From the NCBI GenBank assembly GCA_039621445.1, contig CP154954.1, forward strand, positions 25,432,954 to 25,496,953: a DNA stretch of 64,000 bases, in the 5' to 3' direction. Shown piece by piece: positions 34,870-37,712 of the stretch. The notes beneath the pieces were generated by a model. It was not told the origin of the DNA, searched no databases, and worked only from the letters and a program-made list of their open reading frames with translations. Made by a program: the position numbers and the translations under genes. Position 1 is the stretch's first letter. Every line of letters begins with the position of its first letter. Origin of the DNA: Euglena gracilis (lineage: Eukaryota).

Positions 34870-35609
34870 GCACAACTGTCCTCGTCAACGTTGAATGGGA
34901 TAATGACCCAAAATAATAATGTTTAATGTATCATTCATACCTCCCCCAGGCATGTGCAGACGCATGCGGGCGCGCATGACAGCACACAAACACAGTTTAA
35001 ACCAAGCCGTAACCCCAAAAAGCCCTAACCCTGCACAAACACAACACACACACACACACACACACACACACACACACACACACACACACACACACACACA
35101 CACCCGCACACACACACACACACACACACACACACACACACACACACACACACACACACACACACACACACAACACACACACAACACACACACAAACCAT
35201 ACAACCATTTAGTCACTGGCCGACCCTCACCTGGGGGTGGGTGACTGGTTGCTTTTTTTTGATTGTTTTTTGGATCGTACCTTGGGGGGGCAATAAACCA
35301 TTGAATTTATCGTCTTTGGTGCTGAAAAAAAAATTGGTCATATTTTTTTCACCTTTGTGGTCAGTTTTCCATTGGATTCCAGAGTGTCCACCCCGACTCC
35401 AAAGGCTCTTGTGTCTGACTGGTTTTTGGACTGGAAGTGACCCCCAGGATCGGTGAAATAATTGTATGTATACAACAATACACACAACACTCAACACATA
35501 CAACACGCAACACGCGCAATGCAAACAACGCACAACTCACAACTGACAACACACACACACACACACACACACACAAGGTAGAAAGAGCCGATGCCAGGAT
35601 TTTGCTATT
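34870..35609 (+). other. Non-conventional (euglenid-type) intron
   Basis: C|GCACAA...TTGCTATT|A: Y|R at both ends, +4..+6 CAA pairs with -8..-6 TTG, and the stem extends (tcct/agga). Splicing restores S-x-N-P homology with gene A. Confidence 0.6.
35038..35195. repeat. (CA)n microsatellite inside gene B intron 1
   Basis: Direct reading; second short tract at 35548-35575. Confidence 0.95.
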
Positions 35610-35775
35610 AATGAACCCTCACCCGGGACCTCGACAGGGTGGCAGGCCCTTCCTCTGTAGCGGACCTCCCAATCGGGCTGACGATCATCCTGGAGACCAA
35701 CAAGGAGGGCTTTGTGCAGGACGAGGGGGAGGAGGAGGAGGAGGAGGAGGAGAAGTCCCCCAGCCAGGCCATCCT
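35610..35775 (+). CDS. Gene B exon 2 (frame across the GGA/GAG run ambiguous)
   Basis: MNPHPGPRQGGR...CSGPPNR...DQQGG matches gene A NPNVWLEQVGR...CSPPSR...DQQGG. Ends T|AAACAG (CAG at +4). Confidence 0.6.
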
Positions 35776-36105
35776 AAACAGCAGAAACCAGTAGTTGATT
35801 TTTACTACAAATTTCACGATCCAAACTTAATCCAGCCCTCGAATCAAACATCCACGTGTCGTTGTTTTTTTTTTGCGGGGGGGGGGGTTCGTCCGAACAC
35901 AAATGGCTGCAAATCGGGCTGGGACGCACTCTGCCACCCAAGGATGGATATTGACATTGCGTTTGGGGGGGGGATAAAACCCGTTATATTAACCCCCCCC
36001 CTATATACTCGATAAATCCGAGAAAACGGACACGGAGGAAAAACTGAGGGCCATTCTGGGGCCGTTTTGGGTCATTTCCGACCAGCTTTGGCCCATGTTT
36101 GCCCC

Positions 36106-36402
36106 GCTCCAGCAGGTCCCTCCTCGACCCGCTGGTGCCCCCCGAAAAGTGGTGACGGTTGCCGCCGTCGGCCGGCCGGCGGGCCTGCGCCCATCAGCCT
36201 CCGCACGCTGTCCGAGGCCACGGGGCTGAGCGCCTCCCCGTCCTCCGCGTCCCTCAAACCGCCCCTGCGGCGGGCCACGCTGCTGCGGTTCCGGGTCCGG
36301 GCCACCCCGGGGACCCCGGCCCAGGGAGGTGCGGGGCGGGGGCCCGCGGCGGCGGCCAAAGGTGGTTGGCGGGGGGGATCGGCTGCCGGGCTGCCGCTGG
36401 GC
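36106..36402 (+). CDS. Gene B exon 3 (5' edge approximate)
   Basis: Very GC-rich; PAPISLRTLSE...LLRFRVRATPGTP...GSAAGLPLG, homologous to 10167-10385. Confidence 0.7.
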
Positions 36403-37712
36403 ATTTCAGTTTGCATTTGGCAGCAATGAGTTTGATAAGCCCCATTTGCCTTGTTTCCCCCCCCCAATGGATGGGGGACCCGTTCAGCACCCTTTTTCTC
36501 TCCTCTCTGAAATTCCATTCCGATGCAGTGCCCCAACGCAGCATATCATGAGGATGACAACCATCACATCGCATGTCTTTCCCGGTCAGACCCTAACCCC
36601 CCCCCCCCGGAGGGGTCCAGTTTGGGCCAGCCTGGCGAAAGTTGGACTGGACCGATGGAAAGTCCGCACAACGCGCCAAATTTTTCCAAAAAGGGGGTCA
36701 AAATGGCCAAAAATGGCATTTTTGGTGGTTTTTGGGGTCTGCACCTCCCAATTGTGGCTGAAAGTGCCAACCCGAGTGGTTTGGGCGTTTTGGGGCATTT
36801 TTTGGGTCCCACCAGGTACAGCCAGCACCTTTTTTTTTCCAGCTAGCACCTTTTCCCAGCCGGCCCGCGGGACACCCCCCCGCGGATCTTTGAGAAAACC
36901 GCTGATCCGGGTTTCAGAGCCCCCGAAACATGCAATGGCAGTTTACTATATTTGCAGTGGTTGGTTTTGGGGGGAGAAAATGGATGCCTCCCGAAGCCGA
37001 AATCTGTGTTCTGTGGTGCATCTTGTGAATGCGCATTGCGGTGATGCGTTGTGGTGTTGCACGTCTGAGTGATATTTCCTTGCCGGCCTGCTTTGCACAA
37101 ATTGTTGTGCTACCTGCACCCCCCTGTCTGCAGGGCAGACAGCAAACCACCGACTCCCCAGCCGTTCACTTACAAAATCTCTGCCATGGGCCCGGCACGT
37201 GCGTTTGGTTGCATCCATGTGACTGTGATGGCGCCCGCAAAGTGCCAAGACTCGGGTTGCAACACATGGTCAGGTATGTGTGTGTGGTGGCCAGACCATT
37301 GGTTAACACCTGTCCCACCCTAGCTCCCCCTGGTTTTTTTCGGAGTGGAAAGTGACCCCCCCTTCCCCCCCCCCCCGGGGGGTGCTAAGCAATGGTGTGT
37401 GTTGTGGCCCCTCGCTCTGTCCGCCGGGCTGGGGCTCGTTCCACCGCAGCACGCCCTCCACCCCACGGGGAACCAACCCCTGGGGGTCCAACCGGCCACC
37501 ACCTTCATTCGTGCCAGCAGCTCTCAGCCGGGCTGCGCTGCGGGCGCTGAAATGATGGGTGGGCCAGCCTGGCACAGCCGCGCTGAGCCGAAATGATTGG
37601 CAAAGAACTGTTGCGCAAGCTACTGGTAGTTTTTTTTGAAGAGTGTCAAAATGGCCTGGAGGGGAAGGTCCGGTCCGACCCCCCCCCACCTCCATGTATC
37701 GAACCCTGCCTT
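36403..37712 (+). other. Putative non-conventional intron
   Basis: C|ATTTCAG...CTGCCTT|G: Y|R ends, 4+4 nt outside CAG/CTG, phase 0 on both sides. The 3' end tatcgaaccCTG is the reverse complement of the MITE terminus CAGggttcgata seen at 30257. Confidence 0.5.

What the first reader, a model, noticed from the sequence alone, without database searches (positions are those of the whole stretch)
34870..37712. Non-conventional intron geometry equals a hAT MITE plus one 8-bp TSD: possible MITE-driven intron system
Seen: five elements have 8-bp TSDs (15481, 24842, 43182, 50635 perfect; 47951 7/8), four of them with CA(G/A/T)...(C/T/A)TG ends. Gene B's non-GT-AG introns have Y|R junctions with exactly 8 nt outside a paired CAA/TTG (3+5) or CAG/CTG (4+4) stem. 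Intron 3 ends in a recognisable MITE terminus (tatcgaaccCTG). Established: euglenid non-conventional introns pair +4..+6 with -8..-6, and hAT elements make 8-bp TSDs. Inference: excising element plus 8 nt restores the pre-insertion mRNA length, so these MITEs would be spliceable on insertion (introner-like), which could explain the tolerated MITE load. A transposon origin has been proposed in general; this window offers specific candidate families.
Basis: partly seen in the sequence, partly recalled or inferred. Interest (0 to 1): 0.75.

Follow-up and report, generated by a model that had tools for sequence, protein, structure and literature searches.

The report
Euglena gene introns beside 8-bp-duplication MITEs
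The interval is part of an expressed Euglena gene cut by five non-GT-AG introns that sits among small transposons making 8-base duplications; the two share a suggestive geometry, but nothing here shows that one made the other.

Summary
Partly confirmed. All five reported MITE-like elements with 8-bp target-site duplications are real. I found four more.

"Gene B" is a real gene. A transcript-derived protein, eukprot:EG_transcript_16557, maps to six exons at 34751-38912.

Both lie inside introns, and the first puts exon 2 in the wrong frame. Such "fits" turn up in 20% of random windows.

None of the five true introns is GT-AG. All have their terminal helix starting at +4 and ending at -6, leaving 3+5 nt outside. 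Four of five carry the published C(A/T)G...C(T/A)G code (PMC12501133). No CAA/TTG or 4+4 case survives.

"tatcgaaccCTG" is a genuine repeated terminus with 5 copies, but it is nested inside intron 4.

The arithmetic 3+5 = 8 = duplication length holds, and two MITEs (b, d) already fit the splicing code. Against the link:
- No intron belongs to a MITE family in this window.
- Intron flanks are no more alike than mismatched pairs (35/64; p=0.12).
- The hAT label is unproven.

A MITE origin, and an 8-nt repeat at a new intron, are already published.

The parts
34751..34837 (+). Gene B exon 1 (ATG at 34751)
   Evidence: tblastn of P0001 (EG_transcript_16557), residues 1-30, 90% identity. Junction set. 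The end is ambiguous at the protein level: 34837 and 34840 give the same residues.
34838..35650 (+). Gene B intron 1, nonconventional: agc-CTG...CAG-gccct|t, 813 nt. It holds (CA)n runs and a small palindromic repeat also seen in MITE d.
   Evidence: CTG/CAG is the one alternative configuration shown to splice in PMC12501133. The downstream exon starts with T, not a purine.
35651..35761 (+). Gene B exon 2
   Evidence: tblastn, 93% identity to P0001 residues 27-67.
35762..36192 (+). Gene B intron 2, nonconventional: agc-CAG...CTG-cgccc|a, 431 nt. The paralogue has an intron at the same site.
   Evidence: The best helix register is (3,5).
36193..36318 (+). Gene B exon 3
   Evidence: tblastn, 98% identity to P0001 residues 66-109.
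36319..37131 (+). Gene B intron 3, nonconventional: gcc-CAG...CTG-tctgc|a, 813 nt. The paralogue has no intron here.
36597..36885 (.). Nested repeat inside intron 3. It is related to the core of MITE c and to 40690-41023.
   Evidence: blastn, 70% over 236 nt, E 1.8e-26. Alignment.
37132..37182 (+).
   Evidence: tblastn, P0001 residues 110-126. Open reading frame.
37183..37814 (+). Gene B intron 4, nonconventional with a variant triplet: gcc-ATG...CGT-gctgt|a, 632 nt. An 8-bp helix lies at register (3,5).
   Evidence: The paralogue has ttc-ATG...CAT-tcccc|a at the same site.
37697..37708 (-). Terminus of a repeated CAGG(G/C)TTCGATA family.
   Evidence: five termini in the window. No convincing partner end or duplication was found.
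37815..37871 (+). Gene B exon 5
   Evidence: tblastn, P0001 residues 127-147.
37872..38816 (+). Gene B intron 5, nonconventional: gcc-CAG...CTG-cccgc|a, 945 nt. The paralogue has no intron here.
38817..38912 (+). Gene B exon 6 with the stop codon
   Evidence: tblastn, 97% identity to P0001 residues 146-176. The spliced frame gives 175 codons plus a stop.
9066..10965 (+). Paralogue 'Gene A' (EG_transcript_39828). Its introns are 9171-9362, 9447-10184 and 10365-10806.
24842..25133 (.). MITE b: CAGGG...CCCTG ends, 8-bp duplication AATGGGTC. It fits the splicing code on both strands.
47951..48455 (.). MITE d: CAGGC...GCCTG ends, 16-bp inverted repeat, duplication 7/8. It fits the code on the minus strand.
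15481..16295 (.). MITE a: CAA...TTG ends, duplication CTCTGGAC. Element e (50635-51507) and a partial copy at 34042-34375 belong to the same family.
43182..43638 (.). MITE c: CAT...ATG ends, duplication CATGCAAA.
50635..51507 (.). MITE e: CGA...TCG ends, duplication GTGGCCAT.
20378..20630 (.). MITE f (new): CAGGCTTGTGCTCA.../...CACAAGCATG, duplication TGTGTGAG.
42899..43099 (.). Element g (new): 18-bp perfect inverted repeat starting GG, duplication 7/8.
29178..29467 (.). Element h (new): CAT...GTG ends, duplication CTCACACC. The inverted repeat is weak (9/12).
26320..26481 (.). Element i (new): CAA...TTG ends, duplication TCGTACGA. It lies within a dispersed repeat family, and the inverted repeat is weak (9/12).

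Best explanation
The interval is the middle of an expressed Euglena gracilis-type gene. The gene has 175 codons in six exons at 34751-38912. It encodes a small MGC-initiated protein of unknown family, homologous to EG_transcript_16557.

All five of its introns are euglenid nonconventional introns. Each pre-mRNA intron folds its two ends into a helix that starts at intron position +4 and ends at -6. The unidentified, probably non-spliceosomal machinery cuts 3 nt upstream and 5 nt downstream of that helix. This step is inferred from the published knock-in genetics; it was not shown here.

Around and inside the gene lie at least nine non-autonomous inverted-repeat elements that made 8-bp target duplications. 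Several have CAGG...CCTG ends.

Because 3+5 = 8, such an element landing in an exon would be removed together with exactly one duplication copy, which restores the message. I think this equality more likely than not (about 0.5-0.6) reflects a common origin of nonconventional introns and 8-bp-duplication inverted-repeat transposons. This window does not demonstrate it.
For: Gene and junctions.
- The ORF 36016-36429 hit P0001 in 1.84 billion representatives (E 2.5e-15). P0001 is eukprot:EG_transcript_16557. That naming is used for E. gracilis Z1 transcripts (PMC6366073, passage).
- tblastn places six collinear blocks at 78-98% identity.
- My junctions give an uninterrupted 175-codon frame ending in a stop.

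Intron type.
- 0 of 5 introns is GT/GC-AG.
- 4 of 5 have N3-C(A/T)G...C(T/A)G-N5, and 4 of 5 are followed by a purine.
- In all 8 introns of genes B and A the terminal helix lies on the (3,5) diagonal. It is the single best register in 4 of them.
- For 7 of 8 introns the end-to-end duplex energy falls in the lowest 5% of 400 random pairs.
- The code itself comes from PMC12501133.

MITEs.
- Searches give the elements.
- CA...TG ends with an exact 8-bp repeat: 5, against a mean of 0.4 in ten shifted controls.
- Elements b and d fit the code.

Literature for the link.
- MITE origin proposed (PMC3935182).
- Inverted-repeat and duplication-like repeats noted at +4..+6 and -8..-6 (PMC11282704).
- Eight-nucleotide repeats at a strain-specific new intron (PMC4770533).
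Against: - No intron terminus or whole intron has a second copy in the window. Only internal nested fragments match other loci.
- Flank identity is 35/64, against 3.73/8 for 52 mismatched pairs, p = 0.12. For Gene B alone, 50 of 120 permutations reach the observed 21/40.
- Only 3 of 18 MITE orientations satisfy the published code. Elements a, c, e, g, h and i do not.
- Intron 1's junction cannot be fixed from protein alone, because two placements give the same residues. Its downstream exon starts with T.
- Intron 4 (ATG/CGT) and A_I1 (CGG/GTG) fall outside the CDG/CH'G rule.
- P0001 is only 78-98% identical per exon, so it comes from another allele, copy or strain. No RNA reads were available.
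- The restored site of MITE d gave a 273-aa spanning ORF, above the 90th percentile of random sites (258 aa). But its left part found no protein among proteins of 88-280 residues.
Confidence: 0.8

Rival explanations
1. The MITE families seen in this window are themselves the active source of nonconventional introns. They are hAT elements that are spliceable on arrival, and Gene B's introns are examples.
For: - The 3+5 = 8 equality holds.
- Elements b and d fit the code.
- CAGG is shared by the 5' ends of introns B_I2, B_I3, B_I5 and A_I2 and by MITEs b, d and f and the CAGGGTTCGATA family.
- A new intron with 8-nt repeats is published (PMC4770533).
- B_I3 and B_I5 are absent from the paralogue, so introns have turned over since the duplication.
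Against: - No Gene B or Gene A intron shares its termini with any MITE family.
- No duplication relic exceeds the mismatched-pair control.
- The stated junctions are wrong.
- hAT is unproven: there is no transposase in 298 ORFs.
- No MITE was shown to sit in an exon.
Confidence: 0.2
2. Coincidence. The 3+5 rule is a property of the cutting machinery alone, measuring from a helix. The 8-bp duplications belong to unrelated transposons (hAT, Merlin or P-like). Nonconventional introns arise another way, for example by double-strand-break repair.
For: - The similarity of intron flanks is fully explained by a shared pyrimidine-rich|purine context.
- The authors who saw the 8-nt repeat favoured double-strand-break repair (PMC4770533).
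- The 3' spacer tolerates 5-6 nt (PMC12501133).
- Merlin with 8-bp duplications exists in E. gracilis.
- Most MITEs here lack CDG/CH'G ends.
Against: - The helix that defines the introns is an inverted repeat beginning CAG, as in MITEs b, d and f.
- 84.4% of E. agilis introns have junction repeats (PMC12501133).
- The youngest described intron has exactly eight repeated nucleotides.
Confidence: 0.3
3. Reverse direction. The intergenic MITE-like elements are DNA copies of excised circular intron RNAs that re-entered the genome.
For: Nonconventional introns leave as full-length circles (as summarised in PMC11282704). MITEs b and d look like intron cores.
Against: Reverse-spliced or retro-copied circles would carry the 3+5 spacer nucleotides and would not be expected to make clean 8-bp target duplications directly abutting CAG...CTG, which is what is seen. 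MITE families a, c and e have non-intron-like ends.
Confidence: 0.05

Closest known systems
Euglenid nonconventional introns (splicing code 5'-N3-CDG/CH'G-N5-6|R; Nomura et al. 2025, PMC12501133; Milanowski et al. 2013 and 2016)
   Same: Non-GT-AG borders. Terminal helix from +4 to -6. CAG/CTG (or CTG/CAG) triplets in 4 of 5 Gene B introns. A purine after the intron in 4 of 5. Junction repeats that let the borders slide.
   Different: Intron 4 (ATG/CGT) and the paralogue's A_I3 (ATG/CAT) and A_I1 (CGG/GTG) keep the register but not the triplet rule. The gene itself is undescribed.
hAT-superfamily MITEs (8-bp target duplication; short inverted repeats that often begin CAG/TAG — the terminal motif is recalled, not from a call)
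   Same: 8-bp duplications (7 exact, 2 at 7/8). Inverted repeats scoring 9-14 of the first 14 positions. No coding capacity. Sizes of 162-873 bp.
   Different: No hAT transposase or dimerisation domain was found in the window. The 8-bp duplication is shared with Merlin and P elements. Element g begins GG like Merlin (PMC8101967).
Introners / transposon-derived introns (Micromonas, Amoebophrya, Polarella, Fritillaria; reviewed in PMC11282704)
   Same: The idea that an inverted-repeat element plus part of its target duplication supplies the excision signals, so that insertion into an exon is tolerated.
   Different: In those systems the spliceosome removes the element, and many near-identical intron copies are seen. 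Here removal would be by the nonconventional pathway, and no intron copy family is seen in 64 kb.
Ds-generated intron in maize (Giroux et al. 1994, cited in PMC3935182; seen only in that paper's reference list)
   Same: A hAT-family non-autonomous element removed from a transcript.
   Different: There, cryptic spliceosomal sites are used and removal is imprecise. Here the geometry would give exact restoration.

Membership tests
Euglenid nonconventional intron | Borders are not GT/GC-AG | tested here: met
   0 of 5 Gene B introns and 0 of 3 Gene A introns are GT/GC-AG.
Euglenid nonconventional intron | Terminal helix begins at +4 and ends at -6 (3-nt and 5-6-nt spacers) | tested here: met
   8 of 8 introns have their helix on the (3,5) diagonal, and it is the single best register in 4. 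Duplex energy is in the lowest 5% of the null for 7 of 8.
Euglenid nonconventional intron | CDG at +4..+6 paired with CH'G at -8..-6 | tested here: inconclusive
   Met in 4 of 5 Gene B introns and 1 of 3 Gene A introns. The others are ATG/CGT, ATG/CAT and CGG/GTG. The published code covers 61.2% of such introns.
Euglenid nonconventional intron | Purine at the first base of the downstream exon | tested here: met
   7 of 8. Intron 1 of Gene B is followed by T.
Euglenid nonconventional intron | Actually removed from the transcript at these borders; circular product | tested here: inconclusive
   Removal is supported by transcript-derived proteins P0001 and P0003 from another copy or strain. No reads were available, so nucleotide-level borders and circles cannot be tested.
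hAT-type MITE | 8-bp target-site duplication directly abutting the inverted repeats | tested here: met
   Elements a, b, c, e, f, h and i are 8/8; d and g are 7/8. CA...TG class: 5, against 0.4 in shifted controls.
hAT-type MITE | A related autonomous element encoding a hAT transposase | not testable with these tools
   No Pfam hit above cut-off in 298 ORFs of at least 85 aa (360 found, 62 dropped as low-entropy). No Euglena genome collection was available.
hAT-type MITE | Target consensus nTnnnnAn (recalled from memory) | tested here: inconclusive
   By eye on the nine duplications listed: T at position 2 in 5 of 9, A at position 7 in 4 of 9.
Merlin-type element | 8-9-bp duplication and inverted repeats ending in 5'-GG (PMC8101967) | tested here: inconclusive
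   Only element g starts with GG. The CA...TG elements do not.
Introner-like (transposon-derived intron family) | Introns in different genes that are copies of one mobile family | tested here: not met
   blastn of the 5 Gene B introns against the window found only internal nested fragments, with no terminal or whole-intron copies. The scope is limited to 64 kb.
Introner-like (transposon-derived intron family) | Target duplication recognisable at the intron borders | tested here: inconclusive
   Matches per intron were 5, 6, 1, 4, 5, 5, 7 and 2 of 8. The total is 35/64, against 3.73/8 in mismatched pairs, p = 0.12.

The most novel reading that the evidence does not exclude
Euglena's nonconventional splicing is an RNA-level clean-up system tuned to one class of DNA transposon. 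It cuts 3 nt before and 5 nt after the inverted-repeat helix, so that exactly one copy of the 8-bp target duplication leaves with the element. This makes CAG...CTG MITEs such as b and d harmless on arrival in exons. It would account both for the dominance of such introns (71.8% in E. agilis) and for the Y|R consensus at both borders, since each border would be the same position of the duplicated target.
Probability: 0.4. Interest if true: 0.8.

Novelty: new member of a known kind. Interest (0 to 1): 0.5.

Why it matters
The origin and removal mechanism of euglenid nonconventional introns have been open since the 1990s. A MITE origin has been suggested since 2013, but without any named transposon family.

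This window shows that free-standing elements with CAGG...CCTG ends and 8-bp duplications do exist in a Euglena genome. Two of them already satisfy the splicing code defined by knock-in genetics in 2025.

That turns the hypothesis into two cheap tests:
- a genome-wide flank comparison in the 5+3 register, stratified by intron age;
- a knock-in of such an element with its duplication into the existing EgGSL2 reporter.

If the tests pass, Euglena would be the first case of transposon-derived introns served by a non-spliceosomal pathway matched to the transposon's duplication length.

Tried and rejected
- Rfam scan of the window: 0 families at gathering score.
- Pfam on 298 ORFs: only four sub-threshold chance hits (SPATA25, Asp-Al_Ex, DUF4719, an LRR), so there are no recognisable domains or transposase.
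- Gapless scan for inverted repeats with adjacent direct repeats across lengths 4-12. It was swamped by microsatellites and palindromic repeat families. The excess at 8 bp was modest, and with all termini it was not clear against shifted controls (9 vs 1-8). Only the CA...TG class stands out.
- Search for a partner end and duplication for the 37708 terminus and its relatives: nothing convincing. The best was 37253 with 9/14 and 5/8.
- Target-duplication relics in the intron flanks: rejected as unproven after the mismatched-pair control.
- A duplicated GCCCCGC motif on both sides of intron 5, compared with the intron-less paralogue site. I judged it low-complexity coincidence, because the better protein alignment does not support that register.
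- MITE-in-exon test: restored sites of nine elements. Only d gave a long spanning ORF (273 aa, against a random 90th percentile of 258). Its left part found no protein among proteins of 88-280 residues.
- P0002, the second hit, is an unrelated repeat protein and was ignored.
- Literature searches for an explicit hAT or 8-bp link in Euglena (and 'find') found none in the held library. Subscription papers (for example Gumińska 2021, J Mol Biol) and the PNAS supplementary datasets were not seen and may bear on this.
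Full report
WHAT THE WINDOW IS

The sequence is eukaryotic and repeat-rich. It has CA and ATAC/ATGC microsatellites, long C and G runs, and a 4.55-kb tandem duplication at 1-9100. Rfam finds nothing at gathering score. I extracted 360 stop-to-stop ORFs of at least 85 aa and scanned 298 of them, dropping 62 as low-entropy. No Pfam family reached its cut-off. So there is no transposase and no conserved-domain gene here.

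IS 'GENE B' REAL, AND WHERE ARE ITS INTRONS?

I sent the ORF 36016-36429 against 1.84 billion representative proteins. It returned P0001 (176 aa, E 2.5e-15). The word-indexed database names P0001 eukprot:EG_transcript_16557. The 2019 E. gracilis Z1 transcriptome paper uses this naming style (PMC6366073, passage).

tblastn of P0001 on the window gives six collinear blocks at 78-98% identity. With junctions placed to reproduce P0001, the exons are:
- 34751-34837
- 35651-35761
- 36193-36318
- 37132-37182
- 37815-37871
- 38817-38912

Together they give an unbroken 175-codon frame ending in a stop. P0001 comes from another allele, copy or strain, so the borders are supported at the residue level only. 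For intron 1, two placements (start 34838 or 34841) encode the same residues.

- The pair 34869|34870 and 35609|35610 does show gca-CAA...TTG-ctatt with Y|R borders. But it reads exon 2 in a frame that does not produce P0001's ADLPIGLTIILETNKEGFVQDEG.
- Position 37712 lies inside intron 4 (37183-37814).
Such false fits are therefore expected.
- No CAA/TTG and no 4+4 case survives.

WHAT THE TRUE INTRONS LOOK LIKE

None of the five is GT/GC-AG. The borders are:

| Intron | 5' end | 3' end and next exon base |
|---|---|---|
| I1 | agc-CTG | CAG-gccct, then t |
| I2 | agc-CAG | CTG-cgccc, then a |
| I3 | gcc-CAG | CTG-tctgc, then a |
| I4 | gcc-ATG | CGT-gctgt, then a |
| I5 | gcc-CAG | CTG-cccgc, then a |

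The code defined by knock-in genetics is 5'-N3-CDG/CH'G-N5-6|R, and CTG-CAG is the one alternative middle-base arrangement that still splices (PMC12501133; abstract and all of Results read). Four of five introns meet the triplet rule. Four of five are followed by a purine.

I then asked, for every combination of unpaired 5' and 3' nucleotides, where the longest uninterrupted terminal helix lies. In all five introns, and in the three introns of a paralogue (below), it lies on the (3,5) diagonal. Intron 4 has an 8-bp helix there even though its triplet is ATG/CGT. The first and last 25 nt pair more strongly than 95% of 400 random pairs in 7 of 8 introns.

These are ordinary euglenid nonconventional introns in a gene that has not been described.

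A PARALOGUE

tblastn also lit up 9066-10965. The ORF 9006-9467 retrieved P0003, eukprot:EG_transcript_39828. P0003 is 39% identical to P0001 over 100 residues.

Its introns are 9171-9362, 9447-10184 and 10365-10806. The second and third sit at the sites of Gene B's introns 2 and 4. Gene A has no intron at the sites of B's introns 3 and 5. Introns have therefore been gained or lost since the duplication.

THE MITES

I found four more: f, g, h and i.

Seven have exact 8-bp flanking repeats and two have 7/8. Elements h and i have weak inverted repeats (9/12) and are the least secure.

Among 28,376 end pairs with at least 9/12 inverted-repeat matches, CA...TG-ended pairs with an exact adjacent 8-bp repeat number 5 at the true register. 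Ten shifted registers give a mean of 0.4. For all termini pooled the excess is not clear (9 against 1-8), because palindromic repeat families create background.

- Elements b, c and d share an internal GCGCCGAAATTTTT core.
- Elements a and e are one family, with a partial copy ending 376 bp upstream of Gene B's ATG.

THE 'RECOGNISABLE MITE TERMINUS'

'tatcgaaccCTG' (37697-37708) has an exact reverse-complement twin at 30257. Relatives lie at 17044, 53546 and, inside Gene A's first intron, 9278. All are followed by similar G/C palindromes. It is a real family terminus. But it is nested in intron 4 rather than ending an intron, and I found no convincing partner end or duplication for it. Intron 3 likewise holds a nested fragment of the MITE-c-type core.

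DOES THE WINDOW LINK MITES TO INTRONS?

The arithmetic is right. The code leaves 3+5 nt outside the helix, and the elements make 8-bp duplications. An element with CAG...CTG ends in an exon would therefore be excised with exactly one duplication copy. MITE b (both strands) and MITE d (minus strand) already satisfy every term of the code. The other 15 of 18 element-orientations do not.

The direct tests came out negative or inconclusive:
1. blastn of the five introns against the window finds only nested internal fragments. No second copy of any intron terminus appears.
2. The 8 nt before the 5' triplet and the 8 nt after the 3' triplet match at 5, 6, 1, 4, 5 (Gene B) and 5, 7, 2 (Gene A) positions, 35/64 in all. 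Mismatched pairs average 3.73/8, and 12% of permutations do as well. For Gene B alone, 50 of 120 permutations reach the observed sum. Both flanks simply share a pyrimidine-rich|purine context (YCYCY|RSC). That fits a target preference as well as it fits a splicing preference.
3. Removing each MITE plus 8 nt gives a long spanning ORF only for d (273 aa, against a random 90th percentile of 258). The left part of that ORF finds no protein among proteins of 88-280 residues.

IS IT hAT?

The 8-bp duplication and short CA-initiated inverted repeats fit hAT. The terminal motif and the nTnnnnAn target consensus are recalled, not tested. No transposase is present. Two Merlin families with 8-bp duplications are published for E. 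gracilis (PMC8101967, passages). Element g, whose inverted repeat starts GG, looks more like that class. The superfamily is open.

WHAT IS ALREADY KNOWN

- A MITE-like origin was proposed in 2013, when no transposon was known in euglenids (PMC3935182, passages).
- A 2016 paper reports a strain-specific new intron with eight-nucleotide direct repeats, read then as double-strand-break repair (PMC4770533, passages).
- A 2024 review describes inverted repeats at +4..+6 and -8..-6 and duplication-like repeats (PMC11282704, passages).
- The 2025 paper repeats the MITE suggestion and reports junction repeats in 84.4% of introns.
- The E. gracilis genome paper gives only 'DNA elements 4.60%' (PMC11252322).
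- My searches found no paper in the held library that names hAT, equates 3+5 with an 8-bp duplication, or describes free-standing CAG...CTG MITEs in Euglena. Subscription papers and the PNAS datasets were not seen.

VERDICT

- The MITE observation is sound and has been extended.
- The gene is real.
- The junction-level evidence was wrong in detail, but the general geometry is right and already published.
- The proposed link is a sharper, testable form of an existing hypothesis, and this window neither proves nor refutes it.

No eukaryotic genome or read collection was available, so copy numbers and family membership beyond these 64 kb stayed unchecked.

Noticed in passing
window 1-9100: A 4.55-kb unit is present twice in tandem, with segments 92-100% identical at spacings of 4536-4595 bp. 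None of the ORFs of at least 85 aa scanned there had a Pfam domain above cut-off.
   Followed up: no
window 9066-10965: A paralogue of Gene B (EG_transcript_39828, 39% identity). It shares two intron sites with Gene B and lacks introns at the sites of B's introns 3 and 5. This is intron turnover between tandem paralogues about 25 kb apart.
   Followed up: partly
window 9278-9336: A roughly 59-bp complete mini-element of the CAGG(G/C)TTCGATA family, CTGGGGTTCGATGT...ACATCGACCCCTG. It sits inside Gene A's first intron. Its 5' triplet is CTG rather than CAG, so its ends do not pair at the middle base.
   Followed up: partly
window 14992-15290 and 17364-17986: Long (GTAT/GCAT)n and (ATAC/ATGC)n microsatellites in inverted orientation, with arms of about 290 nt at 85-88% complementarity. 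They bracket a roughly 2.2-kb region that contains MITE a.
   Followed up: no
window 34042-34375: A 3' partial copy of the MITE a/e family. It has (AAAGTGG) and (GATGCTGGGC) internal repeats, and its CAGAGGTGCTTG terminus ends 376 bp upstream of Gene B's start codon.
   Followed up: no
window 40690-41023, 36597-36885, 43338-43420, 24953-24995, 48364-48396: A dispersed core repeat around GCGCC(G/A)AAATTTTT, flanked by C/G palindromes. It is shared by MITEs b, c and d, by a nested piece of intron 3, and by a locus at 40.7 kb.
   Followed up: partly
window 42899-43099: A 201-bp element with an 18-bp perfect inverted repeat beginning GG and a 7/8 8-bp duplication. It lies 83 bp from MITE c. The GG terminus resembles the Merlin elements reported for E. 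gracilis.
   Followed up: no
window 39000-39900 and 60900-63400: Clusters of short palindromic units around TGCGCAAATGCGCA / GCATTTGCGCAAAT. They generate many spurious hits in the scan for inverted repeats with adjacent direct repeats.
   Followed up: no
window 3303-3466, 25991-26935, 33786-34042: A dispersed repeat family (…CTTGTCGTACGACC…GGTCACAGGTTGCAGG…) in 5-7 copies, one block lying just upstream of Gene B. Candidate element i lies within it.
   Followed up: no
window 37270 and 37750: Inside intron 4 there is a good conventional donor (CAG|GTATGT) and a C-rich tract followed by CAG repeats. A conventional intron nested in a nonconventional one, or an alternative isoform, is possible but unsupported by P0001.
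   Followed up: no
window 34838-35650 and 36319-37131: Introns 1 and 3 of Gene B are both exactly 813 nt long. blastn found no similarity between them, so this is probably chance.
   Followed up: partly
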